Positions 21,509 to 62,746 of a DNA stretch of 64,000 nucleotides are shown here, piece after piece. A model generated the notes under the pieces. It ran no database searches. It was not told where the DNA came from and saw only the letters and a program-made list of their open reading frames with translations. How positions within the stretch are numbered: position 1 is the stretch's first letter; each line of letters begins with the position of its first letter. Position numbers and translations under genes: made by a program. The DNA is from Candidatus Babeliales bacterium (lineage in GTDB: Bacteria > Babelota > Babeliae > Babelales > JANWKD01): positions 256,001 to 320,000 of the forward strand of contig CAVRJM010000001.1 of assembly GCA_963722075.1 (NCBI GenBank). Reading direction: 5' to 3'.

Positions 21509-22291
21509 TTATTTTAAGGCGTTATTAAGATTTTCAAGTCTATTTTTTAAGTTTTTTAGGCTAAATTCTACAGAACGTTCTCCAAGGGAGGTGGCCCATA
21601 CTTCTTCTTCCTCCTCTTCTTCTTCAGGTGTTGTAATGGTACCCCACATAGTAGGCAATTCTTCTTCACTTTCAGATTCTTCCGCGGAAATCCATCCCTC
21701 TTCTTCCGATTCTGCTCCTTCTTGCGCGGGTTGTAAGCCAATAGTTTGTTCAATCATATGGCGCGTTTGATTATCAGTAAAGTAAGGAACAAAATGATGT
21801 CTAAGTTTCATATCGCCAGTTCTGCTTTTATAAATTGCACTATGTCGTCCACTGATTTTCATTATATCTATAAAATGCTTCGCATTAACCCATCTAAAGT
21901 CTTTTTTTTCTTTATCCCGTTGATCAGGCCCTTTTAAAATTTGTTGGGGGGTTTTATAGGGAACTTCTGCTAAAAATAATGAATAATATTTTTTTGGGCC
22001 AGGATTAGTGATCCCATCTTTTGGTTGTAAATCCTTTTCGGTTAGTTTGTAAGTACCTCGAGATTCTTCCCGCAGCTCACGCAAGGCAGTTTGCTGAGCA
22101 GTTTCATTTCTCTTACCGCCACCACCAAAATCAGCCCAGTCATCTTCTAGTGTTCCAAAAGCTTCTTGTCCTAGTAGAAAATATACGTTCCCTTTGTGTT
22201 TAGAATATGGAAGTACGCCCGCATTTTTTGCTTCTAGTGAAAAACTAATGATGCATGATAAAAAAATAATGATTAATGCTTTTTTATTCAT
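21509..22291 (-). CDS. Secreted Nudix hydrolase with acidic tail
   Basis: Signal peptide; AGVLPY..VYFLLGQE..WADFGG; intact Nudix box ETAQQTALRELREES; Glu-rich tail. Confidence 0.85.
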   Translation of the reverse strand: MNKKALIIIFLSCIISFSLEAKNAGVLPYSKHKGNVYFLLGQEAFGTLEDDWADFGGGGKRNETAQQTALRELREESRGTYKLTEKDLQPKDGITNPGPKKYYSLFLAEVPYKTPQQILKGPDQRDKEKKDFRWVNAKHFIDIMKISGRHSAIYKSRTGDMKLRHHFVPYFTDNQTRHMIEQTIGLQPAQEGAESEEEGWISAEESESEEELPTMWGTITTPEEEEEEEEVWATSLGERSVEFSLKNLKNRLENLNNALK

Positions 22292-36992: not shown

Positions 36993-38616
36993 TATCAATA
37001 AAAAGCATCTTCAGGCGTTATCTCAAATTATAATTCTGTATAATACTGATGAACGATGGGTCGAATTATGTGATCGTATCAAAATTCATATTAATGAATT
37101 AGTAGCAGAAAATGCTACGCGTGGGTATGCCCTAAAAAGAAAATCTGATACTTCTTTCTATAAAAAAGCAGAGCCCAAAAAACAAAAAGTGGATGGTGAA
37201 GAAATACCATCGTTAATACAATTGTGTACGTCATGTATTACAAAAAATGTACAATCAGGTTCTTATGATTCGGAGAGTGTTGTTAGGATTTTTGATTTTG
37301 CCCTGGAACCGAGATTACCAACGATAGAAAATTCATGTTTAGGTGTATTATATCAAGAAGCACAAGAACAAAATAAAAAAAGTTTTTTAGCAACAGCTCA
37401 GTGGTTAGAAAATCTTAATTTATCATCAACACAAATGGAAGCATTAAGAAATCATATTGTAAATAATTCAAAAGCACTTCGTGCATTATTGCTAAAACTA
37501 GAAGCTGCTACAAAATTAATTACCCAATTTGAATTATTGGGCCCTAGCTATGAATCTGCTTTATCTTCTGATGGAAATGTTCTTGCATTACAAGAGCGGG
37601 GAAATAATATTATTAAATTATTTAACTGCAAAACAGGTAAATTACTTCAGGAAGTGCAAGGGCTTTCAGGTCCTGTTTTTGTAATGGCTCTTTCATGTGA
37701 TGGAAAAAAATTAATTACTAACTCACTGGTAGCTGGTTCTGCTACGTTTCGTTTATGGGATTGCGATACTGCTACTTGCATTAAAGAATATACTTTTACG
37801 AATAATGATTTACTTTCTGCATTGGCAGTAAATGCTAATAAAAAGATTATGGCGTTAGGTTTTGAAAATGGAACGATACAGCTTTATAACATGGAAACTA
37901 ATGGTATTAAAAATTTAATAAGCAAGGGGACAATTAATTTGCTACAATTTTCCGATGATGGTAAAAGGTTAATATCCAGCGCAACTAATGAAACACGATT
38001 GTGGGATCTTGAAACTGATAAAAGCATTATGCTTTATACAAAAAGAATTGATGGTTGCTTATTAAGTGAAAATTTTGTTGCATATAATAGAGGAAATTCA
38101 GCTAAGCTATTTAATCTTCAAACGAATCAATATTACAATTTACAAAGTCGTGATATTTTAAATTATTTTAAATGTATCAAATTACTTGCATTTTCTCCTG
38201 GTGAAACAATACTTGCAACAACTGGTAATAATTCCGGGGCTATTTGTTTATGGGACTCTCAAACTGGTCAACATATCAAAACAATTCAATGTCCTACTAA
38301 TAGATCTATTAGTTCACTCGTTTTTAATAGCGACGGAGAATCATTCATTTGTCTTCCAAAATGTTTCCTTCTACAAGTTGGTGGAGCTTTCGTTGACTTT
38401 AAAGATGTCATATATATTTATAATTTTATTGATAAACAAATATTAGCTGATTTGGATATAGAAACACTATTATGGCTTGGGTATCTTTTAAGCGCTGATC
38501 CAATAACGGTTCAAATGGAAATTTTCCTTTATAATCGAGATTTGTATGAAAAATTACCTGACGAGATTAAAAGATATTTAGATAGTATTAAGTAATATAA
38601 AATTTGAGTCAGAGAA

Positions 38617-48074: not shown

Positions 48075-48119
48075 AATAAGTAACTATAAATGATCTCAGA
48101 TATTTTAGGGAATAATTAT

Positions 48120-50105: not shown

Positions 50106-52110
50106 ACTATTATTATCAATTCCGTTTATAGTTCTTTCTTTAAAGGGGATGCAACCATCGGATATAAGTCTTTATTTCTACTTTGGATCAAATCCAACAA
50201 TAAGCACTGACGATATAAAAACTATCTATGAAACTATGGCTCCTGTTTATAATCCGGCTAATTATGAGCAAAGTCCGGTAAAAGCTTTAATGCATAAAGA
50301 ACAAGCAGCAGAATACTTCAGTAAAATGAGCGAAGCATACGAAATTTTAAGAGATCAAACCCTGCGTCCAATGTACGATATTTTTGGGTTAAGTCGGGTG
50401 AGGGATTTTTTAAATAGAAAAAAAGATTTATTAGATGGTATAAAAAAAGGAACTGAAGCGTTAAATGGGTTTATTACTTATTGTCATATGCCACAATATC
50501 GTGAACAAATAAAACCGTATCATGAAAAATTATGCGTATATTGGATCCAACAATTAAATGATTGGTTAAATACTGATGTTGTACCCGAGCTACAGCGGGC
50601 CGTTGTCACTACAACATATAACGTTATTCAATTTCTTCACAGCAATAATCAGGTGCAAAATAGTGCTGAAATAATTAAATATATTGATCTAGCATTAAAT
50701 TATGTGAGAGAACTTCTTCCTTTAAATGATGCGCAAGATTCTATTATAGCCCAAGAGCTTACCCAATTAAGAAATCAGTATCAATCTACCCAAAGTTCGG
50801 GATCTGGTTCTGGGTGCCAAGAAAATATAGAAGCGGGAACAATTGGAACAAAAAGACCTTTTGTGTCAATAGATGACAAACATAGAGTAAATAATGCAGT
50901 AAAGCGACTAAGGGAGTCTTCTAACGAATTACGCAACGAAAGGGAAGCAGCTTATAGAAGAGCAAAGGAAATTGAAAAAGAAGTTGAGCAGATCCGAAAA
51001 TATGTGGAAGAAAAATCTTATTTTACTACAGATGGAACCAATGGGCTTACCGTAGAAGAATTTTACACTGAAATTACTAAGCGGTTAACCTTTATGAGAG
51101 ACTTTCCAGAAGGTATGAGTCAGTATATTAGATCAAAATGCGATAAGTTATTTTCAGGGCTTATTATTCAAGTCGTTGATTTGTTGAGAGATCAGTTTCA
51201 TTTATTTAAATCTGATGCACAAAATCAAGATAATGCTTATACATTGGGTGCGGCATTATACCATTTTGGTAAAGATCAGGTAACATATGATTCTTATGAA
51301 TTTCACGATTTAAGACGTGCTCTTTATTCATTTAATTATAACTACTCGCAACAAGCACGAAGATCGCTGGGAGAGCAAATAGAGAAACTTGATAAGGCTT
51401 TAAAAGATAAAGAAAAATCTGCCCTAGAATTAGCTAAGATACTTATAAATAGGTGTAAGTATGTTCATACCCTTGCTCCTCACTATCAAAATAAAGCATT
51501 AAAACAATTTTATAAGATTGCTAAACGAATGCTCGATGAAAATGAATCAGAGTATTCTGTATTGGTAGCAAAACAACTGATGTATATGGCAGCAGCTAAA
51601 TTGAAATGGGTTGATTGTTCACAAAATATAACGTTGAGTGGTATTTATAGGAAATTTAAAAAAATTAATTCTCTTTTTGAAAAATCATTTATTCCTGACA
51701 TGCGAGAAATGCGTGAATTTTGTAATGCAATGAAAGAGAAATTAAATACAGATGATGCAGAATCTATAACTACGGTTAAACAAACTATTATTAGCTCTTC
51801 GGTTAAATTTAAAAAACTAACAAATATTTTTAGTAGTAATCTAAAAATTCAACGAGGTTTACATACCCTTCGCGGTTATATGGGGCCATCTGAAAGGGCT
51901 CAATCGCAAACACCTTTTACTACTTTTATCGCATTGCTTTCTAATTGTGTTCAAAAGTTAATTAAGTCTGATCAACAAAATGACGCTTTGGAATTGATTG
52001 AGAACATATTAAAATACCCAGTATTACAATACTCAATTAGCCAACCGACTAAAGAACAATTCCTTGATTTAAAAAAACAAATTATGGGGGAAAAGAAAAA
52101 TGAAAATTAA
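50095..52110 (+). CDS. Secreted protein with degenerate J-domain and putative NLS (paralogue 2 of 4)
   Basis: Overlaps the previous gene by 11 nt; similar throughout; QNKALKQFYK. Confidence 0.75.
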   Translation: MKIKLLLSIPFIVLSLKGMQPSDISLYFYFGSNPTISTDDIKTIYETMAPVYNPANYEQSPVKALMHKEQAAEYFSKMSEAYEILRDQTLRPMYDIFGLSRVRDFLNRKKDLLDGIKKGTEALNGFITYCHMPQYREQIKPYHEKLCVYWIQQLNDWLNTDVVPELQRAVVTTTYNVIQFLHSNNQVQNSAEIIKYIDLALNYVRELLPLNDAQDSIIAQELTQLRNQYQSTQSSGSGSGCQENIEAGTIGTKRPFVSIDDKHRVNNAVKRLRESSNELRNEREAAYRRAKEIEKEVEQIRKYVEEKSYFTTDGTNGLTVEEFYTEITKRLTFMRDFPEGMSQYIRSKCDKLFSGLIIQVVDLLRDQFHLFKSDAQNQDNAYTLGAALYHFGKDQVTYDSYEFHDLRRALYSFNYNYSQQARRSLGEQIEKLDKALKDKEKSALELAKILINRCKYVHTLAPHYQNKALKQFYKIAKRMLDENESEYSVLVAKQLMYMAAAKLKWVDCSQNITLSGIYRKFKKINSLFEKSFIPDMREMREFCNAMKEKLNTDDAESITTVKQTIISSSVKFKKLTNIFSSNLKIQRGLHTLRGYMGPSERAQSQTPFTTFIALLSNCVQKLIKSDQQNDALELIENILKYPVLQYSISQPTKEQFLDLKKQIMGEKKNEN

Positions 52111-54160
52111 ACTATTATTAGTAATTCCACTTATAATTCTTTCTTTAAAGGGGATGCAAGAATCTGATATAAGTCTATATTCCTATTTAAATGTTCAAAA
52201 TAATGCAACTAGAGAAGAAATAAAAAAAGCATATAAAGATTGTTCTCTTATTTATCATCCAGATAAATATGAACAAAGCTCTATACGCAATCGTATGTCA
52301 AAGCAAGAAGCTGAAGAGCATTTCAAAAAAATTAAAGAAGTATATGAAATTTTAAGTAATAATAAAACACGAAAGATGTATGATGATTTTGGTTTAAAAT
52401 ACGTCCGAAGTTATATTGCTCAGGAAGAAAAGAACCGGCGTGCTGCTGAAGAACCCATGGCCCAGCAACAATCTACCCAAACAGCGTTCACCGCAAAAAG
52501 GTCATCACAAACTCCTAAACAAGACGAAGCCAAGTCAAAATCGGAAGAAGATATAAAGAATGTTCTTGAAGATCTTGAGGCGGGAACTAAGATCATTAAT
52601 AACTTAATTACTGAATTTTATACCTATAGTTTCAGGTTATCAGAATTAGAAGGATATTATAACGAAAAAATTCAAGAATGTATTTCATTATTAAAAATGC
52701 CCAAATACTCAATTATTAGAGACGATATTAAGAAAACAATAATAGATGTATCACAATTATTCATTGGTGTATTACTATTAAAAATGAAAGAAGATCAAAA
52801 TTTGGCTCGTAATGTACTACTCCATGCAGAAGAAATTATGCAGTCTTTATACTTAGGAGTAAATGATTACAGGTTTTTTGCAGATGCTGTAACGCGCGCC
52901 CGAGAAAAATTGGCACCCAGATCGCAACCATATACTCAACAACATACTGCTTTTCAAACAAAACGACCGTCACCACAGGGTCCTAAACAAGCTGATCCTA
53001 AGCGCGTAAAAACAACTGAACCTACTGTTGATTCGAAGTTTAAACAAAGAATCGAATTTATAATTGAAGAACATAAACGTTTTAGCGATTATTTAGCGCA
53101 AGCAAGTTTTTTGAAAGAAAACGTTTTAACCTATCAAGAATTTTCCAATATGGTACAGAAAAAAATTGATTTTATTAAACCATATATAACAGGAATTCCA
53201 GAAAATTTAATTTTAGGATATAAGTTGCGTAATAGCATGTTGAGACATATTTTCCAGGCCATTTTATTATTAAAAGAAAGATACACTGAATTTAAAGAAG
53301 TTGATTGGATCATGGCCTGTGGATGGGGTAAAAATTTATGTAGTTCAGCGTTTTTTATTTATTCAATTTCAGATGATGAAGACAAAGCGGTTGTTAAGGA
53401 GCTTTCTTTGTTAAATTCTTATTTTGATAAAGAGATATTGCATTCAAAAATTAGGAATATAGATTATCACCTTCGTTCAAAAAGCTCGAATATAATTGAA
53501 GATGCGCGATTTGTACTTCACGATTATGAAAACAAAATAATTTCAGCAGATCCTATAATGCAAGATAAAGCCGCAAAGCATTTTTATAAATTTGCCAAGA
53601 AGTTATTAAAGCAATCAGAACGAGCTCTAGCAGTTGAGTTGTTAAATAGGGCACTATACTTGAGATGGTCAAATATAGATGGTATTTACCAAACAATTGA
53701 GAAAATAAAAAATCTACTTACAAAGCTAAATTATTATTCGATTATTGTAACGAATTTTTGTCAAAGTAATAGAAAAAAATTGGAAGAAAATTCGCCAGAT
53801 GCAGCGCTTGCTGTTCAACAAAATATTATTAATAATAATGATCGATTGAAAAATTCGCTTTCATGCTGTGTTATTCATCGATTTCAGAATTTCATATATA
53901 GTACTTTTACAACCACAAACCCTGATTTACTGAACCTTTATTATGATTGTATTCAGTTGTTAATTAATTCTCATTTTTTAAATGAAGCTTTAGAGCTCAT
54001 TAATATCGTAATTTGTCAATACGATCTGGATAAAGAAACACAGGATCGCTTTAAAGAACAATTTGATTTAATTAATCAAATGCAAGAATTAGATAAACAA
54101 CTTGAAAGTCAGCCACCAATGGATTTCAATGATATTAAAGATTTTTTAAGTAAAGAATAA
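52100..54160 (+). CDS. Secreted J-domain protein with intact HPD and putative NLS (paralogue 3 of 4)
   Basis: LYSYLNV..NATREEIKKAYK...YHPDK...F..IKEVYEILS..R.MYD; KRPSP..PKRVK; QDKAAKHFYK. Confidence 0.85.
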   Translation: MKIKLLLVIPLIILSLKGMQESDISLYSYLNVQNNATREEIKKAYKDCSLIYHPDKYEQSSIRNRMSKQEAEEHFKKIKEVYEILSNNKTRKMYDDFGLKYVRSYIAQEEKNRRAAEEPMAQQQSTQTAFTAKRSSQTPKQDEAKSKSEEDIKNVLEDLEAGTKIINNLITEFYTYSFRLSELEGYYNEKIQECISLLKMPKYSIIRDDIKKTIIDVSQLFIGVLLLKMKEDQNLARNVLLHAEEIMQSLYLGVNDYRFFADAVTRAREKLAPRSQPYTQQHTAFQTKRPSPQGPKQADPKRVKTTEPTVDSKFKQRIEFIIEEHKRFSDYLAQASFLKENVLTYQEFSNMVQKKIDFIKPYITGIPENLILGYKLRNSMLRHIFQAILLLKERYTEFKEVDWIMACGWGKNLCSSAFFIYSISDDEDKAVVKELSLLNSYFDKEILHSKIRNIDYHLRSKSSNIIEDARFVLHDYENKIISADPIMQDKAAKHFYKFAKKLLKQSERALAVELLNRALYLRWSNIDGIYQTIEKIKNLLTKLNYYSIIVTNFCQSNRKKLEENSPDAALAVQQNIINNNDRLKNSLSCCVIHRFQNFIYSTFTTTNPDLLNLYYDCIQLLINSHFLNEALELINIVICQYDLDKETQDRFKEQFDLINQMQELDKQLESQPPMDFNDIKDFLSKE

Positions 54161-54189: not shown

Positions 54190-55845
54190 ATGCGAAGGTT
54201 ATTTATTCTCGTATTACTGCACATTACCTGTTATGCCATGGAAGATCCTTTTCATAATTATACATTAGAAGAGCAATCCAAAAAAGAATTAATTATTACC
54301 ATGGAAATGTATGCTAATAATTTAAAGCATTATATTTCCCTTTATTATGATAATCAGCTCAGTTGTACACAACTTGAAGATTATTATAAGTCGCTACACG
54401 AATGGTTATATAAACAAGGTGAGTTATGCAGAGGTACGCAAATTGCGCCTATTTGTGCAGAGGAAATAATCAAAAATGGTTTTAGCATCATTAAGCTATT
54501 TGCATCACATAAAGAAGCGGAAATGCTTGAAAAAGCGGTTTACTATATTGATTCTCTAGTAAAATATATACGCCAAGGAGATTTGCGATTACATGAATTG
54601 GATCAATTAAAAAACAAGCTCAGTCAAAAATTAAAGGCATCAGTTCAAAAAGGATTGTTAAAAAGAAAAGCTACGCAAAGTCCTTGCTTATCTGTTAAAA
54701 AAAATAAAGTTGATGATGTAAATTTTTTGAAGGAAAAAAATGCTGCATTAAAGAATTACTTAAAAAGAACCTCTTATAATTTGAATGAATTTTGTAGTAC
54801 GGTTACCATATCATTAGATACTATTATCGATTTATTTGATGATCTTCCTGAGCAAAAAGAAAAAGAAGAAAAGGGTTTAAGAGCACAAATACTCGCTAGT
54901 ATTTGTAGAGCAATTTCTTTATTTGAATATCAATTAGAAAAATTTACTCATTATAATAGTAAAACTGCATTTCAATGCATTATTTATATATGTCAACGTG
55001 GATTACCATTTAACTCGATATGGACGCAACTGCAAGAAACGCAAGAAATTTATAAATATAAATTACAATGTATTGAAATAAAAGAACAACAAAGAAAAAA
55101 AGTAGAAGATCTAATAGATGCAATGGGCCAACAATTTCCAATCAGCAAAACGAGCCCGGATCTTAAGAATATTGCAGATGTTTTAATGGCGGAGTGCGGA
55201 AATAATGATGATCTTTCCTTGGATTATCAACAAAAAGCTCTAAAGCATTTTTATAAAGTAACAAAAAAGTTATTCCAACAAAATGATATTGAACGATTTA
55301 CAACGCTGATTAATTGTGTTCTTTCTCAGGCATGGATGGAGGATCTTCATATCATTGATCGTTTTACAAAGATTTGTGATTTAAAAAATAAAAATGACGA
55401 AGCATATCAATGGGTACTAAAATTCAATGCAATTATAAAAGAACATTTTAAGAATGCGCAGGATATTGAATCTTTAAAAAATGCTTTAAACACATTACTT
55501 AATTATCAATCAGATGCTTTTCAGGTAATCAGTCGAATTTCTACCATGATTATCGTTCCTGAAGTGCTTAATGGAAGTGTTACCATAGGCATTAAAGAGG
55601 ATGATCAGCAAAAAAATGATGCAAAATCAATGATTCTTAATCTCTATTATGATGGGGTACAAAAATTAATGGAAGCAGGCTTGTTTGAAGAGGCCGGAAT
55701 TCTTATTAATAGTATAGCAGCTCAGGGTGATGAACTAAAAATAAATGAATTAAGAAACCAACTTGGTGATTGTATTATGGCATCATATGAAGCTACGCTT
55801 TATTTAAATTTACCTGATGATGATGCCGATACTATTATTTTGTAA
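54190..55845 (+). CDS. Secreted paralogue 4 of 4, lacking the J-domain
   Basis: GGAG RBS; CYA|MEDP; KRKATQSPCLSVKKNK; QQKALKHFYK; LNLYYD..Q.L. Confidence 0.7.
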   Translation: MRRLFILVLLHITCYAMEDPFHNYTLEEQSKKELIITMEMYANNLKHYISLYYDNQLSCTQLEDYYKSLHEWLYKQGELCRGTQIAPICAEEIIKNGFSIIKLFASHKEAEMLEKAVYYIDSLVKYIRQGDLRLHELDQLKNKLSQKLKASVQKGLLKRKATQSPCLSVKKNKVDDVNFLKEKNAALKNYLKRTSYNLNEFCSTVTISLDTIIDLFDDLPEQKEKEEKGLRAQILASICRAISLFEYQLEKFTHYNSKTAFQCIIYICQRGLPFNSIWTQLQETQEIYKYKLQCIEIKEQQRKKVEDLIDAMGQQFPISKTSPDLKNIADVLMAECGNNDDLSLDYQQKALKHFYKVTKKLFQQNDIERFTTLINCVLSQAWMEDLHIIDRFTKICDLKNKNDEAYQWVLKFNAIIKEHFKNAQDIESLKNALNTLLNYQSDAFQVISRISTMIIVPEVLNGSVTIGIKEDDQQKNDAKSMILNLYYDGVQKLMEAGLFEEAGILINSIAAQGDELKINELRNQLGDCIMASYEATLYLNLPDDDADTIIL

Positions 55846-56524: not shown

Positions 56525-57397
56525 ATGAAAAAGACCCTCACAATAGCTATTTTTATAATTTATTTACAGTTTATCGCATATGGTAATGCCTGGCAATTGC
56601 GGCTTATTCCCCTTACCAAAGATACTATGACAGGGGAGTGGAGTGCTTTATTATGTCATGATCTTCGTTATGGCTGTATGGAATTAAGTAAGCCAATGGT
56701 ATTGGAGGCTGTAAACAGTTCCGAAATTAGTACTTTTTTTTCTGTTGCTACCAATGGATCATATGCCTATAGCGCGCAAGATTTAGAAAAAAAATGCTGC
56801 TCTTTTCGTTTATCTAATGGAGATCTTATTTGCTATATTCCAGTACCGTATATTTCAGCAGGATTAATTAATAAAAAGGCACATGAATCATCTGATCTAA
56901 CTGTTACTAAAAATAATTTTGTCTGGTTGCCTATACATGAGATATTACAGCGGCGCACTATAGTAAAATCGGCTCATGGTCGATCGATAGCATATATGTT
57001 GGAATTGGATATAAAAAAATATTTTAAAGAACATTGGTATACTACCGTATTACCAAAAATGGCTACCGCTCCTATGGCGCCTTTAAAAGATCAACCTATG
57101 AATCTAGCTGCTAAAAATGTTCAAAGACGTTATGAAGTGAGTAAAAAAATGAGTAGCACCAACAGTGTGCCGCACAAAAAACCGGTAGCTTCACCGGTTA
57201 AGGAACCAAAGCAACCACAGCAAAAATCTCAAGTAGCTATCAAAAAAAATATTCCAACTCAAAAAAAGAATCAGTTAGTTATGATCAAAGGGAAAGTCCC
57301 TAATGAAAAACGCGAATTAGTTATGATTAAAGGAGAAATTCCTCCAAATGAAAAAAAGAATCAAATAATTATGATTAAGGGGAACGTTTCTACATAA
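56525..57397 (+). CDS. Secreted degenerate Nudix-fold protein with C-terminal peptide repeats
   Basis: GNA|WQLRLIP..GEW.ALL.HD; IPVPYI; FVWLP; tail repeats (L/I)(V/I)MIKG. Confidence 0.55.
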   Translation: MKKTLTIAIFIIYLQFIAYGNAWQLRLIPLTKDTMTGEWSALLCHDLRYGCMELSKPMVLEAVNSSEISTFFSVATNGSYAYSAQDLEKKCCSFRLSNGDLICYIPVPYISAGLINKKAHESSDLTVTKNNFVWLPIHEILQRRTIVKSAHGRSIAYMLELDIKKYFKEHWYTTVLPKMATAPMAPLKDQPMNLAAKNVQRRYEVSKKMSSTNSVPHKKPVASPVKEPKQPQQKSQVAIKKNIPTQKKNQLVMIKGKVPNEKRELVMIKGEIPPNEKKNQIIMIKGNVST

Positions 57398-57430
57398 GTC
57401 GGCATTACCATATAAAAAAAAGGAAGTATT

Positions 57431-58687
57431 GTGAAAAAAATGACATATCAGTTATTGCTGTTTGTTATGGTGTGGTTTCCTCTTACTTATAGTTGGCAAG
57501 GACATGTAATACCTATTGCTTTTGATAATGGTCTATGGAAAATTTTATTAGTGCATGATAGAAATGTGCTTCTTTGGAGTGATTTCAGAAAGGATGGTAC
57601 TGGCTCTCGTAAAAAAGGAAATGTAATTGCGGCTCAAGCATTAGCAGTGCAAACCAATAATATGTATCATGTTAACCCGGCAGATTTAAAATATTTTCCG
57701 ATAATAGAAGAAAAGCGTGGACGGGTTTATTTTGTTAAAGTTCCATTTATCAGAGGTAAAGAACTTTATGAAAATGCCCGCACAGCGGCTAAAGATGATT
57801 TTGCATGGGTGGCTATAGCAGATATTGTTGCTGGTAAGTTACTACAAACACCGCGCGGTAAGCCAATACAAGTAGGTAAAACAACTAAAGAAATTTTACA
57901 ATTTATCAAAAATTATTATGAAGCTATATTAGCAGCATTAACGGAGCCAATTGAAGCAATGCCTTCTGCTAAAAATTGCTGGCTTAATATTCCCGGTGCT
58001 ATTTATTTTTATGAAAGTGGTAAACCGTATTTTGAGTTTACTAATTTTGCGCGCTATCCAGTAGTACTTGATGGTGAGCAGTGGCCTACCACTGAACATT
58101 ATTATCAAGCTCAAAAATTTATTCATCATCCGGATTTGCAAAACAAAATAAGAAACTTAAAAACGCCACGAGAAGCATTAGATTTTGCACGTAGGCATAA
58201 AAATGAAATTGACCCCGATTGGCATGATCGCAGTATTTCTGTAATGCTAACCGCAGTACGTGCTAAATTTAATCAACATGCTACGTTACAGAAACTATTA
58301 GTAGATACGGGGAACGTTACTATAGTAGAAAATGCCGGCCAACATGATAATTTTTATGGTGCCGGTGCTGATGGCAAAGGAAGAAATGTATTGGGTCAGA
58401 TATTGATGCGCGTGCGTGCTGAATTACAAGGTGTTGTTGATCCAGGAGATGATTTTATATGTTACCCAAATGCAGCAGATTATTTTGCTGGTAGTAATGG
58501 TGAGGTATGTACTGCGGGTATTGTAACGAGGCCGCAAACAGAGCAGCGGATGCAGCCTCAAGAAAGTGAACTTGAAAAAAAATTAACAACTCTTAAATCG
58601 GCACTCAATAATCTGCTAGCTTTATTAACAGGATCTAGTTCATCAAGTCGTGGGCATTATTCATTATGGCGAGTTACTAGAAGTTAA
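57431..58687 (+). CDS. Secreted pseudo-Nudix plus NADAR (YbiA-like) fusion protein
   Basis: GTG start; WSDF Nudix-like N-domain; NADAR motifs FTNF, WPTTEHYYQAQKF, AKFNQH, LVDTG, IVE...D.FYG.G.DG.GRN.LG.ILMRVR. Confidence 0.85.
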   Translation: MKKMTYQLLLFVMVWFPLTYSWQGHVIPIAFDNGLWKILLVHDRNVLLWSDFRKDGTGSRKKGNVIAAQALAVQTNNMYHVNPADLKYFPIIEEKRGRVYFVKVPFIRGKELYENARTAAKDDFAWVAIADIVAGKLLQTPRGKPIQVGKTTKEILQFIKNYYEAILAALTEPIEAMPSAKNCWLNIPGAIYFYESGKPYFEFTNFARYPVVLDGEQWPTTEHYYQAQKFIHHPDLQNKIRNLKTPREALDFARRHKNEIDPDWHDRSISVMLTAVRAKFNQHATLQKLLVDTGNVTIVENAGQHDNFYGAGADGKGRNVLGQILMRVRAELQGVVDPGDDFICYPNAADYFAGSNGEVCTAGIVTRPQTEQRMQPQESELEKKLTTLKSALNNLLALLTGSSSSSRGHYSLWRVTRS

Positions 58688-58698
58688 AAGGATATCGT

Positions 58699-59556
58699 AT
58701 GAATAGTAAATTATTAATAATATGTTCATTGCTCATTAATTGTTCAATGCACGCGGCAATGATACGCGTTTTACCGGTGACGCTGTTTCAAGGGGAATGG
58801 TATGGACTATTTGCTCATGAATCAAAAGAGCCTGATTTAAATAAAGGATGGACCGACTTTAAGGGATTAAAAGATGATACTCGCAACAATGAAGAACAGG
58901 CCATTGATATTGTTAATAAGCAAACGAATTATACTTTGGCCATAACGCAAGAATATTTTCAGAAATGGGTTGTTGGCGTGGAGCTAGAAAAAAGTTTGTT
59001 ATATGTGATTAAATTCCAGCTGCCAAAAGATTATACATTAGACAAAATACAAGAAACATTAATTCTACTTACACCTAAACAATTCCAATATGATCTATAT
59101 GCATTTATCCCTATTAACAAAATTATTAACAATAAAAAAATATCCCTCTCACTACGAAGAAAAGAAGATATTATTGCTGGAAGAGAAATTGCCTTAATGA
59201 TTAATAATGCACAAATTAATGACGATATCAAAAATATTTTGCAACTTAATTGGTCCAAAATACGTCCAGAGATTATAAAATTAGATTGGAAAAATAAAGG
59301 AATTAGTAGTGAACTCCCCATTGAGGCTAAAAAACCAACCAGCACAAAACCAATGGTGAAAAGCCCAATAGAACGAGAATTGATGAGACTTAAATCAAGC
59401 TTAAATGATTTATATAATGCATTACCCACGCTATCCTATCCTGAGTATGAACCAGAAATATATAAGAAAAAAGAAATGAAAGAACTGGAAGAGCCTGAAG
59501 AAGAAGAAAGCAGAGGTTGGCTCAGTTTGTTCCAGTGGGCTGGGCAATTTCAATAA
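58699..59556 (+). CDS. Secreted degenerate Nudix-fold protein
   Basis: IRVLPV...GEWYGLFAHE..GWTDF..VNKQT; acidic tail. Confidence 0.6.
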   Translation: MNSKLLIICSLLINCSMHAAMIRVLPVTLFQGEWYGLFAHESKEPDLNKGWTDFKGLKDDTRNNEEQAIDIVNKQTNYTLAITQEYFQKWVVGVELEKSLLYVIKFQLPKDYTLDKIQETLILLTPKQFQYDLYAFIPINKIINNKKISLSLRRKEDIIAGREIALMINNAQINDDIKNILQLNWSKIRPEIIKLDWKNKGISSELPIEAKKPTSTKPMVKSPIERELMRLKSSLNDLYNALPTLSYPEYEPEIYKKKEMKELEEPEEEESRGWLSLFQWAGQFQ

Positions 59557-59568
59557 AAAAGGATACTA

Positions 59569-60318
59569 ATGAAGAAGCAAATACTGGTATTTTTAACATT
59601 AATTTTTTTTAGCCATCATATGAATGCATGGCAGGTACGCTTATTGCCGGTTACGTATTATGAAGGCGTATGGTATGGATTATTTGGCCATGAAAAGGGA
59701 AGTGCTGATTGGCAAACAGGGTGGACGGATTTTTACGCGCACGGTTTGTTGTGGCAGGATGCGGTAAAGCTTATTATTGGCGAATATAATAAACAAACGC
59801 TTGATTTAACCAATATGACCAAAGAGTATTTAGAGAAATGGGGAGTACCCATCAAATTGAAGTCAGATGTAATGTATTTTGTATATTTTCAATTGGCAAC
59901 ATTACCTGAAAATTTTCAAAATAATCTAACGCAAGCGCTTTATGAAGGTGGAAATATAATTAACGCAGCTGCCCTTATACCAATTGATAATATTATTAAT
60001 AATGAACCTATCAAGATTGAAGATCTTGTATTGAAGGGGGTAGGCCGAGAAATAAGTATGATTACTCTTGATAATATTCAAGTTAATGATGATATAAAAG
60101 AAATTTTACAAAATAATTGGCAACAAGCGCATAAAGAACTTCGTAAAAAACTTTATGAAATAGCTGTCGGAGAACCCGGTTTGGCTATTCCTGAAGAACC
60201 TAGACGCGCTCATGTAGTAAGAAGAAAATTAGGTACTGAACAGAAAACATTGCCATTTACGGCGCTATTAGATTCTTTGCGTACGAAATTACAATCTTTG
60301 CGGCAAGCATTACGTTAA
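59569..60318 (+). CDS. Secreted degenerate Nudix-fold protein
   Basis: WQVRLLPV..GVWYGLFGHE..GWTDF..YNKQT; close paralogue of 58699-59556. Confidence 0.6.
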   Translation: MKKQILVFLTLIFFSHHMNAWQVRLLPVTYYEGVWYGLFGHEKGSADWQTGWTDFYAHGLLWQDAVKLIIGEYNKQTLDLTNMTKEYLEKWGVPIKLKSDVMYFVYFQLATLPENFQNNLTQALYEGGNIINAAALIPIDNIINNEPIKIEDLVLKGVGREISMITLDNIQVNDDIKEILQNNWQQAHKELRKKLYEIAVGEPGLAIPEEPRRAHVVRRKLGTEQKTLPFTALLDSLRTKLQSLRQALR

Positions 60319-60328
60319 ATATAGAAAA

Positions 60329-60490
60329 TGTCATCATGAGGAACTTGCGTCCGACTTCGCCAAGGCTACGACGGATTTCTTAATAGCAAGTGCGTGTCCG
60401 GCGGAGTTTTAACGGAGACGGAACGTAATGATCCAGTGAATAAAATTAAAACATTATAACTGGATTCTTACGCTAACGCTCAGAATGAGA
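60329..60490. repeat. Family A REP-like pair with two family B hairpins inserted
   Basis: TGTCATCATGAGG..[60350-60375; 60397-60422]..ACGTAATGATCCAG-AT spacer-CTGGATTCTTACGCTAACGCTCAGAATGA. Confidence 0.8.
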
Positions 60491-60502
60491 GGCGTTAGCG
60501 CA

Positions 60503-62746
60503 TTATGTTGATTTTTTAGTGCTATAACCACATTCTTTATTAGGACATTGCAAGGTAATTGAACCGTCCTTTTCATATTTTTTAAGTAAATAAGGACTTT
60601 TGCATTGTGGGCACTCTATTTCTTCAATATCATCAAAAATAACAAATTTACATTTAGGGTAATTTTTACAGCCCCAAAATGGTTTGCCTTTCCATTGCTT
60701 TTTGATTATTTCGCCACCATCAAGTGGGCAAGGAAATGATGCTTTAACTTGTTGTATGTACTTACAATCGGGATATCCTGAACAAGCTACAAAAGGACCA
60801 TATTTTCCAACCACCGTGCGCAATGGTTTTCCGCATTGGGGACATTTTTCTTCTAATAATTTAGGTGCTTCCATTGCTACCAATTCTATTGAGCCATCTT
60901 CTTTGCGTTTAAAATTACTCGTGAAAGTACATTCAGGATAATTAAGACACCCAATAAAATGGCCTGCTTTACCAACACGAATAGCCAGGTCCCCCGTTTT
61001 ACATTTAGGACACTTCATGCCAATAGGTTCAGCTGGACGTCTAGCTTCACCACGGAAGGTATCAAGATCTTTTTCAAAAGCATCATAAAATTCTTTTAAT
61101 AAAGTATCACGCTCCAGCGTACCATGGGCAATTTTATCTAAATCACCTTCCATAATCGCGGTAAATTTATAATCCATTATTTTAGGTAAATTTTCGGTGA
61201 GCATTTTAACCACGGTCATACCAAGTTCGGTGGGACTAAACCTTTTTTTACTATCAAGCGTAGTATATTCGCGTGTTCTAATAGTGTTTAAAATAGTCGC
61301 ATAGGTACTTGGGCGCCCAATACCTTCTTTTTCAAGCTCTTTAACTAAGGAAGCTTCTGTAAAGCGTGGCGGTGGTTGGGTAAAATGCTGCTTTGGGGTA
61401 ATTTTTTTCAAATCAAGCGGCGCTTTTGCTTTAATATCTTTTGGTATCACCACTTTTTGTTCTTCTTCATCTTCATCAAGCCCATATACCTTTAAAAAAC
61501 CATCAAATAAAAGGGTAGAACCAGTAATTTTAAAGGTAAATTTATCACCAATTATAGTGACCGTTCGTTGTGCGTATAATGCAGGTTTCATTTGACAAGC
61601 AACAAACCGTTGCCAAATTAGTTCATATAATTTTGCCGCATCAGAAGAAAGATATTTTTTTGCGTATTCGGGTGTAATTGCAATATTAATTGGACGAATT
61701 GCTTCGTGTGCATCTTGTGCTTTACCACCCTTAACATATACGTGCGCTTTAGGGGGTAAATAATTCTTGCCAAATTGTTTATCAATAAAGGTGCGCGCTT
61801 CTTTAAGAGCGACCTCTGAAATGCGCAATGAGTCGGTTCGCATATAGGTGATGAGCGCTACAGGAGTAGTTTCATCCTCAAGCGGAATACCTTCATATAA
61901 ATTTTGGGCAACTTGCATGGTCCTCTTTACCGCAAAACCCAAGCGGTTATAGGCAGCTTGTTGCAAGGTACTGGTCATAAAAGGAGCATTAGGATTTTTA
62001 AGCCGCTGTTTGTCTTCAACACTATCAACGATAAAAGACGTTTTTTTGAGTTGATCTTGAATTTTTTTTGCTTCTGTTTCAGAGGGTATCTCGGCCTTTT
62101 TCTTATTGATATGGGTTAGCGCGGCTGAAAACGTTTCTTTTTCATAACCAAATAACCCGGTAATTGACCAATATTCTTCGGGTTTAAAAGCGCGAATGGC
62201 TTCTTCGCGATCGCAAATTATTTTAAGAGCAACCGATTGAACGCGTCCTGCTGAGAGCCCTTTGGTTATTTTTCTCCATAAAATTGGCGATACTTCGTAG
62301 CCTACCCAGCGATCAAGAACGCGTCGTGCCTGTTGCGCGGCTACCTTTTGCATGTCAATATCATAAGGATGTTCAATAGCCTCGATAATGGCAGGCTTGG
62401 TTATTTCGTTAAAAGTGATTCTATGGATTTTATTCTTATTCTTTATAACCTTTTTAATTTCCTGTGCAATATGCCAGGCAATAATTTCACCTTCTCTATC
62501 AGGATCGGGGGCTAAAAAAACCTCATCAGCACTTTGAGCAGCTTTACAGATATCGTTAATGACTTTTTGCTTATTCTCTAAAACCACATAATCTATGGTA
62601 ATGCCATCGTTCATATCAATACCCAGCTCTTTTGAGGGTAGATCCTTGATATGCCCTATAGTAGACATTACCTTGAAGTCTTTATCCAGAAATTTAGAGA
62701 TGGTCTTAATTTTTGCTGGTGATTCTACAATTAATAATTTTTTCAT
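60503..62746 (-). CDS. topA: DNA topoisomerase I
   Basis: LIVESPAK, DPDREGE, SAGRVQS, ITYMRTDS, QDAHEAIRP, GIGRPSTY, C-terminal zinc ribbons. Confidence 0.98.
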   Translation of the reverse strand: MKKLLIVESPAKIKTISKFLDKDFKVMSTIGHIKDLPSKELGIDMNDGITIDYVVLENKQKVINDICKAAQSADEVFLAPDPDREGEIIAWHIAQEIKKVIKNKNKIHRITFNEITKPAIIEAIEHPYDIDMQKVAAQQARRVLDRWVGYEVSPILWRKITKGLSAGRVQSVALKIICDREEAIRAFKPEEYWSITGLFGYEKETFSAALTHINKKKAEIPSETEAKKIQDQLKKTSFIVDSVEDKQRLKNPNAPFMTSTLQQAAYNRLGFAVKRTMQVAQNLYEGIPLEDETTPVALITYMRTDSLRISEVALKEARTFIDKQFGKNYLPPKAHVYVKGGKAQDAHEAIRPINIAITPEYAKKYLSSDAAKLYELIWQRFVACQMKPALYAQRTVTIIGDKFTFKITGSTLLFDGFLKVYGLDEDEEEQKVVIPKDIKAKAPLDLKKITPKQHFTQPPPRFTEASLVKELEKEGIGRPSTYATILNTIRTREYTTLDSKKRFSPTELGMTVVKMLTENLPKIMDYKFTAIMEGDLDKIAHGTLERDTLLKEFYDAFEKDLDTFRGEARRPAEPIGMKCPKCKTGDLAIRVGKAGHFIGCLNYPECTFTSNFKRKEDGSIELVAMEAPKLLEEKCPQCGKPLRTVVGKYGPFVACSGYPDCKYIQQVKASFPCPLDGGEIIKKQWKGKPFWGCKNYPKCKFVIFDDIEEIECPQCKSPYLLKKYEKDGSITLQCPNKECGYSTKKST

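What the first reader, a model, noticed from the sequence alone, without database searches (positions are those of the whole stretch)
56525..60318. Operon of four secreted pseudo-Nudix proteins, one fused to a NADAR domain
Seen: all four align with the active Nudix at 21509-22291 (h-h-P..G.W..L..HE/HD, W.DF in three, later h-P-[YF] and F.W motifs in the first two), but the catalytic RELREES helix is replaced by ALAVQT, IVNKQT or EYNKQT. ORF 57431-58687 adds a complete NADAR domain. Established: NADAR/YbiA proteins are N-glycosidases; some reverse guanine ADP-ribosylation (DarT1 antitoxins) and others clear riboflavin intermediates; Nudix folds bind ADP-ribose and capped nucleotides. Inference: an exported reader-plus-eraser toolkit against host or competitor ADP-ribosylation/NAD signalling. 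No cognate ADP-ribosyltransferase is in the window.
Basis: partly seen in the sequence, partly recalled or inferred. Interest (0 to 1): 0.75.

Follow-up and report, generated by a model that had tools for sequence, protein, structure and literature searches.

The report
Secreted dead-Nudix family with NADAR enzyme
Four neighbouring genes of a probable protist-parasitic bacterium encode proteins with export signals built on a Nudix fold that has lost its catalytic residues, one fused to an intact NADAR enzyme, so they may act on ADP-ribose-type molecules of the host, though that role is untested.

Summary
ORFs 56525-57397, 57431-58687, 58699-59556 and 59569-60318 lie on one strand with gaps of 33, 11 and 12 bp. 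All four start with signal-peptide-like sequences and share one N-terminal domain. AlphaFold2 models of O2 and O3 are confident, and their top Foldseek matches are Nudix folds. O1 and O4 are tied to them by profile comparison only. The Nudix-box glutamates are gone: in the O2 family two of the three Glu positions are acidic in 0 of 31 sequences, replaced by a conserved Q-T motif. O2 also carries a complete YbiA-subfamily NADAR domain, with its conserved residues invariant in 31 of 31 relatives. The family is small and lineage-restricted. The few named relatives are Babeliaceae/TM6, and Pfam's NUDIX model misses it. A tree shows the four genes are old paralogs, each with counterparts elsewhere. 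The "reader plus eraser against ADP-ribosylation" reading is plausible but unproven: no ligand, substrate or ADP-ribosyltransferase was found. Indirect support:
- YbiA-type NADARs de-ADP-ribosylate bases in vitro.
- The phylum lacks cofactor synthesis.
- One relative has a histone-like basic tail.
- A Babeliales NADAR gene sits beside a possible PARG-like protein.

Verdict: a new variant of known kinds, of moderate interest.

The parts
56525..57397 (+). O1: signal-peptide-like N-terminus, degenerate pseudo-Nudix domain (about residues 22-175, A-T instead of Q-T, no W.DF), then a basic Lys/Pro/Gln-rich tail (pI 10.4) ending in three 'MIKG' repeats
   Evidence: ORF. N-domain HMM E=5.7e-21. hhalign 99.0%. 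Sits in a 100/100-supported clade with standalone P0088/90/92/93/94. Tail charge. Not folded itself.
57431..58687 (+). O2: signal peptide + pseudo-Nudix + linker helix + NADAR + C-terminal leucine-heptad helix (whole gene)
   Evidence: ORF. RBS before the GTG start. AF2 pLDDT 86.3. Foldseek finds YbiA/NADAR and Nudix folds. 30 database relatives share the two-domain build.
57494..57946 (+). O2 pseudo-Nudix domain (residues 22-172)
   Evidence: pLDDT about 90+. Foldseek: NUDT16 4.5e-6, MutT1, NrtR, TIRR, Dcp2. Nudix-box Glu positions replaced.
58004..58429 (+). O2 NADAR domain (residues 192-333), YbiA subfamily; E222, K229, E300 and D306 conserved
   Evidence: Pfam PF08719 1.4e-32. TIGR02464 116.8 bits against a 73.7 cut-off. 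PDB profile search: YbiA 8.5e-50. All four residues invariant in 31 of 31.
58571..58627 (+). O2 C-terminal leucine-heptad helix (residues 381-399, LEKKLTTLKSALNNLLALL)
   Evidence: Regex hit. Model helix 380-403 with pLDDT 86-89. The same motif lies near the C-terminus of 15 further family proteins and of both L005 proteins.
58699..59556 (+). O3: signal peptide + pseudo-Nudix (about residues 20-200, K-Q-T-N motif) + heptad helix + acidic/aromatic tail
   Evidence: AF2 pLDDT 82.4. Foldseek PDB: NUDT7, Dcp2, Ap4A hydrolase, NrtR, X29. BFVD: giant-virus Nudix, best 4.6e-9. Sister to P0086, support 100/93.
59569..60318 (+). O4: signal peptide + pseudo-Nudix (K-Q-T motif) + C-terminal heptad helix
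   Evidence: 36% identical to O3 over 202 aa, E=3.7e-33. N-domain HMM 5.5e-8. One close database relative, P0080. Not folded itself.
21509..22291 (-). Paralog with an intact Nudix box (GGGKRNETAQQTALRELREESR), signal-peptide-like N-terminus, acidic tail and the same kind of C-terminal helix; the likely active member of the family
   Evidence: Pfam NUDIX 1.6e-7, 31.8 bits against a 21.1 cut-off. The only one of 76 window ORFs that matches my Nudix-box regex. N-domain HMM 2.3e-11.

Best explanation
SHOWN. This is a cluster of four old paralogs from a small, lineage-restricted protein family. The few named relatives are Babeliaceae/TM6, that is Dependentiae. Each protein has a Sec-type signal-peptide-like N-terminus followed directly by a Nudix-fold domain. 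That domain has lost the metal-binding glutamates of the Nudix box and carries a conserved Q-T-(N/H) motif in their place. O2 fuses this dead Nudix domain to a YbiA-subfamily NADAR domain whose conserved catalytic residues are all intact.

INFERRED. The proteins are exported through Sec and then the type II system, the only secretion system reported in Babela, and they act in the protist host. The NADAR domain is the enzyme. It cleaves an N-glycosidic ribosyl bond, most likely ADP-ribose attached to a nucleic-acid base or a soluble ADP-ribose derivative. The dead Nudix domain cannot cut the pyrophosphate. It keeps the nucleoside-diphosphate-X binding cleft and serves as the substrate-recognition module that 'naked' YbiA domains lack. 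The three standalone paralogs bind the same class of ligand without processing it, as sequestering or targeting proteins with different tails: basic in O1, leucine-heptad in O3 and O4. The intact-box paralog at 21509-22291 would cut the pyrophosphate of the same kind of molecule.
For: Fold and loss of catalysis. The AF2 and Foldseek results give Nudix folds for O2 and O3. Profile links tie in O1 and O4. In the O2 family the position of the Glu in 'RE' is Ala in 24 of 31 and acidic in 0 of 31. The last Glu of 'EE' is Gln in 28 of 31 and acidic in 0 of 31. In the O3/O4 family that last position is Gln in 13 of 15 and Glu in 1. None of the 94 fetched proteins has a Nudix box by my regex.

NADAR intact. 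E222, K229, E300 and D306 are invariant in 31 of 31. In the alignment the first three stand opposite the 8bau residues that match the paper's E43, K50 and E125 (passages). E125 is the glutamate that defines the YbiA subfamily.

YbiA-type NADARs hydrolyse guanosine-ADPr and cytidine-ADPr in vitro. What sets NADAR specificity is stated to be unknown, with accessory factors suggested (PMC11125620 sections 2 and 3; PMC12945103 abstract).

Functional constraint. 31 fused and 15 standalone members at 17-50% identity to O2 or O3 share invariant residues. Each window paralog has its own nearest relative elsewhere. Locus L001 has two such fusions in tandem.

Export and host context. All five family proteins in the window pass my signal-peptide heuristic. 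Passages report no complete cofactor pathways in TM6, type II as the only secretion system of Babela, and signal-peptide proteins taken to reach the amoeba cytoplasm.

Hints towards nucleic acid or ADP-ribose. Relative P0040 is signal peptide + NADAR + a histone-like Lys/Arg/Pro tail, and O1 has a tail of pI 10.4. In Babeliales locus L005 the NADAR gene is followed by a protein with a signal-peptide-like N-terminus and the same C-terminal heptad. The ESM-Atlas model of that protein resembles PARG_cat_microb/TIGR02452 clusters at TM 0.52-0.54 (a lead only).
Against: No ligand or substrate was tested or can be read from the sequence. No ADP-ribosyltransferase is present in the 64-kb window, and the other ~1.35 Mb of the genome was not seen.

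The structural neighbours do not single out ADP-ribose binders. The best ones are NUDT16, NUDT7, Dcp2, X29 and giant-virus Nudix proteins, which include decapping and CoA enzymes.

By sequence the NADAR is nearest to E. coli YbiA and passes the TIGR02464 'riboflavin intermediates N-glycosidase' cut-off.

A signal peptide alone takes a protein only to the periplasm, and my heuristic also passes 23 of 52 long window ORFs.

The PARG-like lead in L005 has no sequence support: Pfam, NCBIfam and PDB give nothing even at E<=10 or E<=1. The N-terminal regions of the two L005 proteins are not significantly like the pseudo-Nudix domain (6% and 39%). Related NADARs with signal-peptide-like N-termini also exist without the pseudo-Nudix domain (P0028, P0033, P0038, P0040), so that domain is not obligatory for the enzyme.
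Confidence: 0.4

Rival explanations
1. The dead Nudix domains are RNA-end (cap) or protein-binding adaptors and not ADP-ribose binders. They would be non-catalytic descendants of a secreted decapping-type Nudix, comparable to CFIm25 or TIRR (comparison recalled). They would bind host mRNA 5' ends or a host protein, and in O2 they would bring the NADAR to RNA.
For: Top structural neighbours include Dcp2, NUDT16, X29 and TIRR. The best matches overall are giant-virus Nudix proteins: Solivirus 4.6e-9, Pithovirus 5.8e-8, and one hit named M7GpppN-mRNA hydrolase. The O2 N-domain is basic, pI 9.6.
Against: Foldseek ranks among Nudix subfamilies are close together at 8-18% identity, so they do not discriminate between subfamilies. 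NrtR, which binds ADP-ribose, is also among the hits. No RNA-binding motif was identified.
Confidence: 0.2
2. This is periplasmic salvage and not host manipulation. The proteins would stay in the periplasm of a bacterium that cannot make nucleotides or cofactors. There they would bind (dead Nudix), split (NADAR N-glycosidase) and trim (the active Nudix at 21509) host-derived nucleotides for uptake.
For: A Sec signal alone implies only periplasmic delivery. TM6 genomes are reported to lack nucleotide and cofactor synthesis (PMC4776705 passage). The family contains one active Nudix plus a glycosidase.
Against: No transporter gene adjoins the cluster: the neighbours are an FkbM methyltransferase, topoisomerase I and proteins with signal-peptide-like N-termini and J-domains. 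The leucine-heptad, acidic and histone-like basic tails are hard to explain for periplasmic binding proteins.
Confidence: 0.15
3. O2 is an ordinary housekeeping YbiA that clears reactive riboflavin-pathway intermediates, and the N-domain is incidental.
For: TIGR02464 scores above its cut-off (116.8 against 73.7 bits). E. coli YbiA is the closest solved relative, 8.5e-50.
Against: The protein has a signal-peptide-like N-terminus. No riboflavin gene is in the window. TM6 genomes are reported to have no complete cofactor pathway. The fusion with a dead Nudix domain is conserved in 31 proteins. YbiA itself also removes ADP-ribose from DNA bases in vitro.
Confidence: 0.03
4. The three standalone genes are decaying duplicates with no function.
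For: O1 has lost even the family's own W.DF and Q-T motifs and found no relative in the word-indexed search. Its amino-acid make-up differs from the rest of the alignment.
Against: All the reading frames are intact. The AF2 model of O3 is confident. Each paralog groups with relatives from other organisms with strong support: O1 with P0092 at 99/92, O3 with P0086 at 100/93. Family residues are conserved across 15 standalone members.
Confidence: 0.03

Closest known systems
E. coli YbiA and the YbiA subfamily of NADAR (PDB 2b3w; PF08719; TIGR02464)
   Same: The O2 NADAR domain matches the full length of the Pfam model. It keeps the conserved Glu, Lys and subfamily-defining Glu. YbiA is its best PDB match by sequence profile (8.5e-50) and by fold (1.1e-11).
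   Different: YbiA proteins are described as 'naked' single domains (PMC11125620 discussion). O2 has a signal-peptide-like N-terminus, a whole dead Nudix domain upstream and a leucine-heptad helix downstream.
DarT1-NADAR and YarT-YbiA toxin-antitoxin pairs
   Same: They share the same enzyme superfamily. In those pairs the NADAR removes ADP-ribose from guanine bases.
   Different: No ADP-ribosyltransferase gene is next to O2 or anywhere in the window, and PADLOC gave no DarT hit. O2 carries an export signal, so it is not an intracellular antitoxin.
Non-catalytic Nudix-fold proteins: the NrtR effector domain (binds ADP-ribose) and TIRR/NUDT16L1 (their roles recalled from memory)
   Same: Nudix fold with a degraded Nudix box, used for binding and not hydrolysis. 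NrtR 3gz8 and TIRR 6co1 are among the Foldseek hits.
   Different: Sequence identity is only 11-15%. There is no DNA-binding domain as in NrtR. These are exported bacterial proteins with their own conserved Q-T-(N/H) motif, and ligand binding is untested.
Secreted Nudix effectors of plant pathogens (review PMC4981494; search listing and start of abstract only)
   Same: The concept of a pathogen exporting a Nudix protein into a eukaryotic host. It fits the intact-box paralog at 21509-22291.
   Different: Those effectors are described as containing the Nudix motif. O1-O4 lack it, and one is fused to NADAR.
Nudix hydrolases of giant viruses of protists (Solivirus, Pithovirus, Marseillevirus; BFVD models)
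   Same: They are the best structural matches of the O3 model, 4.6e-9 to 1e-6 with TM up to 0.69 by target. They occur in the same kind of host.
   Different: Sequence identity is 9-18%. Whether the viral proteins keep the Nudix box was not checked. No common descent is shown.

Membership tests
Nudix superfamily (fold) | Alpha/beta/alpha Nudix fold | tested here: met
   O2 and O3 AF2 models with N-domain pLDDT of about 90+. Foldseek PDB gives 153 and 30 matches at E<=1e-3. Apart from two NADAR structures that match O2's C-terminal domain, the listed ones are Nudix proteins or Nudix-domain regulators. O1 and O4 are covered only by profile homology.
Nudix hydrolases (PF00293, active enzymes) | Nudix box GX5EX7REUXEEXGU with its metal-binding glutamates (consensus recalled) | tested here: not met
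   The 'RE' Glu position is acidic in 0 of 31 and the last 'EE' Glu position in 0 of 31 in the O2 family. In the O3/O4 family the last position is Glu in 1 of 15. My regex finds the box in 0 of 94 fetched proteins and, within the window, only in 21509-22291.
Nudix hydrolases (PF00293, active enzymes) | Score above Pfam's gathering cut-off | tested here: not met
   O1-O4 give no NUDIX hit at E<=1. 1 of 31 O2-family members reaches E=0.002 and 0 of 15 O3/O4-family members hit at all.
NADAR (PF08719) | Full-length match above the gathering cut-off | tested here: met
   113.7 bits against a 35.1 cut-off, model positions 1-163 of 163. 31 of 31 family members match.
NADAR, YbiA subfamily | Conserved Glu and Lys of the active site plus the subfamily-defining Glu in the last strand (E43, K50, E125 of P. 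nicotianae NADAR; passages) | tested here: met
   E222, K229 and E300 are invariant in 31 of 31 and are aligned to those residues of 8bau. This assumes a two-residue numbering offset in the deposited chain, which is my inference from the equal spacing.
NADAR | N-glycosidase / ADP-ribosyl-base hydrolase activity | not testable with these tools
   Needs an enzyme assay.
DarT-NADAR or YarT-YbiA toxin-antitoxin system | Adjacent ADP-ribosyltransferase toxin gene | tested here: not met
   The neighbours are an FkbM methyltransferase, pseudo-Nudix paralogs and topoisomerase I. There is no ART domain in the 56 window ORFs submitted to Pfam. PADLOC gave only a weak NADAR-type hit, PDC-M42C at 3e-7.
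Riboflavin-intermediate N-glycosidase (TIGR02464 equivalog domain) | Model score above cut-off | tested here: met
   116.8 bits against 73.7. The model describes the domain, not its physiological role.
Riboflavin-intermediate N-glycosidase (TIGR02464 equivalog domain) | Cytoplasmic enzyme in an organism that makes riboflavin | tested here: inconclusive
   Signal-peptide-like N-terminus. No rib genes in the 64-kb window. The phylum is reported to lack complete cofactor pathways. The rest of this genome was not seen.
Sec-exported proteins | Cleavable N-terminal signal peptide | tested here: inconclusive
   My own heuristic (basic n-region and at least 8 of 10 hydrophobic residues) is passed by O1-O4 and by 21509. 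Hydrophobic N-termini precede the domain in the relatives. No SignalP-type predictor was available.

The most novel reading that the evidence does not exclude
The standalone dead-Nudix proteins would be secreted 'sponges' or decoys. They would capture ADP-ribose-derived immune signals, or ADP-ribosylated or NAD-capped nucleic acids, of the protist host without cutting them. The NADAR fusion would destroy the same molecules, and the intact Nudix paralog would cut their pyrophosphate. Together they would form a three-part bacterial counter-defence against eukaryotic NAD/ADP-ribose-based immunity, built by repeatedly reusing one fold.
Probability: 0.12. Interest if true: 0.8.

Novelty: new variant of a known kind. 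Interest (0 to 1): 0.55.

Why it matters
The ADP-ribosylation field states that it does not know what NADAR enzymes do outside DarT operons, or what gives 'naked' YbiA domains their substrate specificity (PMC11125620 discussion). Here a YbiA-type NADAR is permanently joined to a dead Nudix domain, a fold that normally grips nucleoside-diphosphate-X compounds. It also carries an export signal, in a probable obligate parasite of protists. That yields a concrete experiment: does the dead Nudix domain set the substrate, and is host nucleic-acid or signalling ADP-ribose the target?

The family also adds a lineage-restricted group of Nudix pseudoenzymes that Pfam's NUDIX model does not detect (0 of 4 window proteins, 1 of 46 relatives weakly).

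My full-text searches found no paper combining Dependentiae, TM6 or Babela with NADAR or YbiA among the 15 listed of 208. Of the 29 papers that hold both NADAR and Nudix, 15 were listed and none of their titles describes such a fusion. Of those I read only the NADAR passages of PMC9503650 (12 of 21 shown) and the Nudix passages of PMC11543638.

Tried and rejected
- **Complex prediction.** The job paired mature O2 with mature O3, using alignments A2 and A4. It returned 'no answer' (score 0.02, mark 0.32) and the controls were not run. This is neither for nor against binding. Eight earlier hand-ins met a full queue.
- **Cluster look-up.** The listing of cluster members, wanted for organism names of ten relatives, was not available. 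The taxonomy of the family therefore rests on two source names (P0013 Babeliaceae, P0041 TM6) and on locus L005.
- **Genome scan.** The search for related loci with A2 was swamped by ordinary YbiA genes. Only L001 and L005 were relevant, so the true number of genomes with this build is unknown.
- **Closed collections.** The 14,358-bp contig that holds both P0002 (best O2 relative) and P0080 (best O4 relative) could not be inspected for the same gene order.
- **O1 searches.** The word-indexed search found only O1 itself, and the ESM Atlas gave no usable hit. O1's relatives surfaced only through the O3/O4 profile search and the tree.
- **L005 N-terminal regions.** They are not significantly like the pseudo-Nudix domain. 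The 583-aa L005 protein has no Pfam, NCBIfam or PDB sequence hit and no homolog in the window.
- **Promoter and terminator scans.** Counts were no higher than in shuffled sequence: 27 promoter-like sites against 21.2±4.5, and 3 terminator-like sites against 3.2±1.9.
- **Tandem Repeats Finder.** It found only two tiny 9-bp arrays.
- **Model coordinates.** They were not available to scripts, so I could not map conserved residues onto a pocket or inspect the contact between the O2 domains. The pTM of 0.56 suggests their arrangement is uncertain.

Full report
**What is there.** Window positions 56525-60318 hold four ORFs on the + strand: O1 (56525-57397, 290 aa), O2 (57431-58687, 418 aa, GTG start), O3 (58699-59556, 285 aa) and O4 (59569-60318, 249 aa). 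The gaps between them are 33, 11 and 12 bp. O1 and O2 have AGGA-type ribosome-binding sites 5-6 nt upstream of their starts. Upstream, 60 bp away and divergent, lies an FkbM-type methyltransferase. Downstream, 184 bp away and convergent, lies topoisomerase I. No terminator-like site was found on the + strand inside the cluster. Promoter- and terminator-like matches were no more frequent than in shuffled sequence, so 'operon' is inferred from spacing only. The cluster's GC content (0.352) matches the window's (0.344).

**One shared N-domain, related to a genuine Nudix.** Pfam and NCBIfam recognise nothing in O1, O3 and O4, and only NADAR in O2. Pairwise BLASTP links O3 and O4 strongly (36% identity over 202 aa, E=3.7e-33) and links the rest only weakly.

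I collected O2's relatives: 78 proteins at E<=1e-3. Thirty-one of them (counting O2) cover at least 73% of O2 and were aligned as A2. The other 47, which cover 56% or less, were left out. An HMM of the A2 N-domain, run against all 76 window ORFs of 80 aa or more, found exactly five: O2 (1.5e-44), O1 (5.7e-21), the Nudix protein at 21509-22291 (2.3e-11), O3 (1.5e-10) and O4 (5.5e-8). The next best ORF scored 0.11.

hhalign gave 99.0% probability for O1, 98.7% for the O3/O4 alignment and 94.7% for the Nudix protein. O1 against the Nudix as single sequences was not significant, at 0.3%.

The protein at 21509-22291 is a true Pfam NUDIX match (31.8 bits against a 21.1 cut-off). It carries a near-canonical box, GGGKRNETAQQTALRELREESR, and is the only one of 76 window ORFs to match my box regex.

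**The fold is Nudix.**
- The AlphaFold2 model of O2 (alignment A2) has mean pLDDT 86.3, with about 90 or more over residues 21-170 and 190-350. Its pTM is 0.56, so the arrangement of the two domains is uncertain.
- Foldseek against the PDB returned YbiA (2b3w, 1.1e-11) and P. nicotianae NADAR (8bau, 4.5e-7) for the C-terminal half.
- For the N-terminal half it returned a long series of Nudix proteins: NUDT16 4.5e-6, MutT1, NUDT7, NrtR with ADP-ribose 1.5e-5, Dcp2, TIRR 2.2e-5. In all there were 153 matches at E<=1e-3.
- A profile search of the PDB with A2 also gave sub-threshold hits of the N-domain to the mitoribosomal protein mL46, at E=0.14 and 0.52. That protein has a Nudix-like fold, a fact I recall from memory.
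- A profile of O3, O4 and P0080, run against 1.84 billion representatives, found only 15 proteins at E<=1e-3.
- With those 15 aligned as A4, the O3 model has pLDDT 82.4, above 90 over residues 21-200.
- Its listed top PDB hits are Nudix proteins or Nudix-domain regulators: NUDT7 1.4e-5, Dcp2, Ap4A hydrolase, NrtR, X29, AraR. There were 30 matches at E<=1e-3.
- Against viral models its best hits are giant-virus Nudix proteins: Solivirus 4.6e-9 and Pithovirus 5.8e-8, with 67 matches at E<=1e-3.

**Catalysis is lost and something else is conserved.** The hhalign alignment places O2's AAQALAVQTNNMY opposite the Nudix protein's TALRELREESRGTY. I tallied the family at the box positions:
- In A2 the Glu of 'RE' is Ala in 24 of 31 sequences and never acidic.
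- In A2 the last Glu of 'EE' is Gln in 28 of 31 and never acidic, and the next residue is Thr in 28 of 31.
- In A2 the middle Glu position is Glu in only 8 of 31.
- In A4 the last Glu position is Gln in 13 of 15 and Glu in 1, and the next residue is Thr in 14 of 15.

Pfam's NUDIX model reaches 1 of 31 A2 members (E=0.002) and 0 of 15 A4 members. Canonical pyrophosphohydrolase chemistry is therefore excluded. The conserved Q-T-(N/H) on the old catalytic helix, together with the W.DF vestige of the loop before it, points to a retained binding site. That last step is my inference.

**The NADAR domain is intact and of the YbiA type.**
- O2 residues 192-333 match Pfam NADAR end to end, E=1.4e-32.
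- TIGR02464 scores above its cut-off (116.8 bits against 73.7). The anti-phage NADAR model NF053876 scores far below its own (87 against 240).
- The A2 profile hits E. coli YbiA at 8.5e-50 and 8bau at 4.6e-20.
- E222, K229, E300 and D306 are invariant in 31 of 31.
- In the alignment, E222, K229 and E300 face chain residues 45, 52 and 127 of 8bau. With a two-residue offset (my inference, from identical spacing) these are the E43, K50 and E125 of Schuller et al. E125 is the glutamate that defines the YbiA subfamily (PMC11543638, passages).

All four E. coli NADAR subtypes, YbiA included, hydrolyse guanosine-ADPr in vitro. YbiA does not protect against DarT1 in cells, and a myxobacterial YbiA is the antitoxin of an ART toxin (PMC11125620, sections 2 and 3). 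YbiA-type NADARs also reverse cytidine-ADPr (PMC12945103, abstract only). Grouping with YbiA therefore does not settle the physiological substrate.

**Export.** O1-O4 and the 21509 protein begin with a basic n-region and a hydrophobic stretch, and the Nudix fold starts directly afterwards. The relatives show the same pattern. My crude heuristic passes all five, but it also passes 23 of 52 long window ORFs. That proportion is in line with the 44% of coding sequences with signal peptides reported for Chromulinavorax (PMC6561590, passages). Babela is reported to have a type II system as its only secretion system, and its signal-peptide proteins are taken to reach the amoeba cytoplasm (PMC4378268, passages). 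No signal-peptide predictor was available to me, so export is probable but not shown, and delivery into the host is inference.

**Organism.** Only two relatives carry source names: Candidatus Babeliaceae (P0013) and candidate division TM6 (P0041). Locus L005 is labelled Candidatus Babeliales and L001 'uncultured Pseudomonadota'. The window's own contig is 1,418,565 bp long. The Dependentiae assignment is thus an inference. It fits the AT-rich sequence, the many signal-peptide-like ORFs, and the tandem families of proteins with signal-peptide-like N-termini nearby.

**Family history.** I built a maximum-likelihood tree of 50 N-domains: 33 NADAR-fused, 16 standalone and the Nudix at 21509. It is rooted at the midpoint only.
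- O2 pairs with P0002 (support 99/99).
- O1 sits inside a 100/100 clade of standalone proteins (P0088, P0090, P0092-P0094), nearest to P0092 (99/92). That clade is sister to some NADAR-fused domains (88/88).
- O3 pairs with P0086 (100/93).
- O4 lies elsewhere in the same 99/88 clade.
- The active Nudix joins that clade on a long branch (92/87), so its placement is unsure.

The four genes are therefore old paralogs that are kept side by side, not a recent burst of duplication.

**Modularity and neighbours elsewhere.** L001 carries two tandem pseudo-Nudix + NADAR genes. Their N-domain HMM E-values are 5.5e-13 and 9.2e-5, hhalign gives 97.1% and 86.5%, and Pfam NADAR gives 6.6e-22 and 3.8e-31. 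Shorter relatives with signal-peptide-like N-termini show other combinations:
- NADAR without the dead Nudix but with the same tail (P0028);
- NADAR with another unknown N-domain (P0033, P0038);
- NADAR with a histone-like Lys/Arg/Pro-rich tail (P0040).

A C-terminal leucine-heptad helix (L-x3-L-x2-L-x3-L-x2-L-x3-L) recurs near the C-terminus of O2 and of 15 further family proteins, and in both L005 proteins. Variants occur in O3, O4 and the 21509 protein (seen in the translations). Among the 76 window ORFs the strict pattern lies near a C-terminus only in O2. Its role, whether oligomerisation or targeting, is unknown.

In L005 the NADAR gene is followed by a 583-aa protein with a signal-peptide-like N-terminus and the same tail. 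The ESM-Atlas model of that protein resembles unnamed clusters (TM 0.65-0.71) and PARG_cat_microb/TIGR02452 clusters (TM 0.52-0.54), with MavL-like clusters at 0.81-0.83 by features. There is no sequence-level support for this, so it is a lead only. If it held, it would place two different ADP-ribose-removing folds side by side.

**Reading.** The identity is firm (about 0.9): a family of Nudix pseudoenzymes with export signals, one member fused to an intact YbiA-type NADAR. The mechanism is inference (about 0.4). In it the NADAR is the enzyme and acts on an N-glycosidic ADP-ribosyl linkage in the host. The dead Nudix supplies the substrate recognition that naked YbiA domains lack. The standalone paralogs bind without processing.

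Four rivals remain: cap, RNA or protein adaptors (0.2); periplasmic nucleotide salvage (0.15); riboflavin housekeeping (0.03); and decaying duplicates (0.03). No ADP-ribosyltransferase is in the window. The remainder of the genome was not available.

**Novelty.** Nudix pseudoenzymes, NADAR hydrolases and secreted Nudix effectors are each known. Co-occurrence of NADAR, Macro, SLOG and Nudix in large DNA viruses has been described (PMC9503650, abstract and 12 of 21 NADAR passages shown). Among the 15 papers listed by each of my searches, no title describes a pseudo-Nudix-NADAR fusion with an export signal or this tandem family. I rate it a new variant of a known kind.

Noticed in passing
window 60325-60505 (+), between O4 and topA: The 184-bp convergent gap is GC-rich for this genome and folds into three hairpins (MFE -54 kcal/mol, z=-3.03; 2 of 200 shuffles fold as well). 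It has no Rfam match at E<=1 and no tRNA. It may be a bidirectional terminator or an undescribed small RNA.
   Followed up: partly
L005:10676-12427 (+), Candidatus Babeliales contig JBFWNW010000003.1: A 583-aa protein with a signal-peptide-like N-terminus lies directly after a NADAR gene and shares the C-terminal leucine-heptad tail. Its ESM-Atlas model resembles PARG_cat_microb/TIGR02452 clusters (TM 0.52-0.54) and unnamed giant-virus and Myxococcota clusters (TM 0.65-0.71). It has no Pfam, NCBIfam or PDB sequence hit and no homolog in the window.
   Followed up: partly
window 48090-54160 (+): Three tandem paralogs (671, 671 and 686 aa) each have a signal-peptide-like start (MKIKLLL...LSLKGMQ) followed by a J-domain (Pfam DnaJ 2.8e-8, 5e-8, 2.5e-18). 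After them, at 54190-55845, comes an unknown 551-aa protein with a hydrophobic N-terminus that did not pass my signal-peptide heuristic. Exported J-domain proteins suggest manipulation of host chaperones.
   Followed up: no
window 57050-57397 (O1 residues 176-290): The O1 tail is strongly basic (pI 10.4, Lys/Pro/Gln-rich) and ends in three imperfect 'h-h-M-I-K-G-x-h-P-x-N-E-K' repeats. Relative P0040 carries a histone-like Lys/Arg/Pro tail on a NADAR. Either tail could bind nucleic acid or direct the protein to the host nucleus.
   Followed up: partly
C-termini of O2 (58571-58627), O3, O4, the 21509-22291 protein, 15 database relatives and both L005 proteins: A conserved three-heptad leucine helix, often followed by an acidic stretch and a short aromatic segment, marks this family. 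In the window the strict pattern lies near a C-terminus only in O2. Its function (coiled-coil pairing or a sorting signal) is unknown.
   Followed up: partly
window 31171-31713 (-): A second Pfam NUDIX protein (E=1e-11, 180 aa) with no signal-peptide-like start. It is not detected by the pseudo-Nudix HMM (E=0.35) and is presumably an ordinary cytoplasmic Nudix.
   Followed up: no
window 33431-35392 (+), 37189-38595 (+) and 35851-36882 (-): Two WD40 beta-propeller proteins, the first with a signal-peptide-like start, flank a DDE transposase. This adds to the eukaryote-like, possibly host-directed gene content of the window.
   Followed up: no
L001:8551-11089 (+), contig CAYTRW010000003.1: Two pseudo-Nudix + NADAR fusion genes sit in tandem, 22 bp apart, next to GroEL, in a MAG labelled 'uncultured Pseudomonadota' with GC 0.37. 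The label may not reflect the true lineage.
   Followed up: partly
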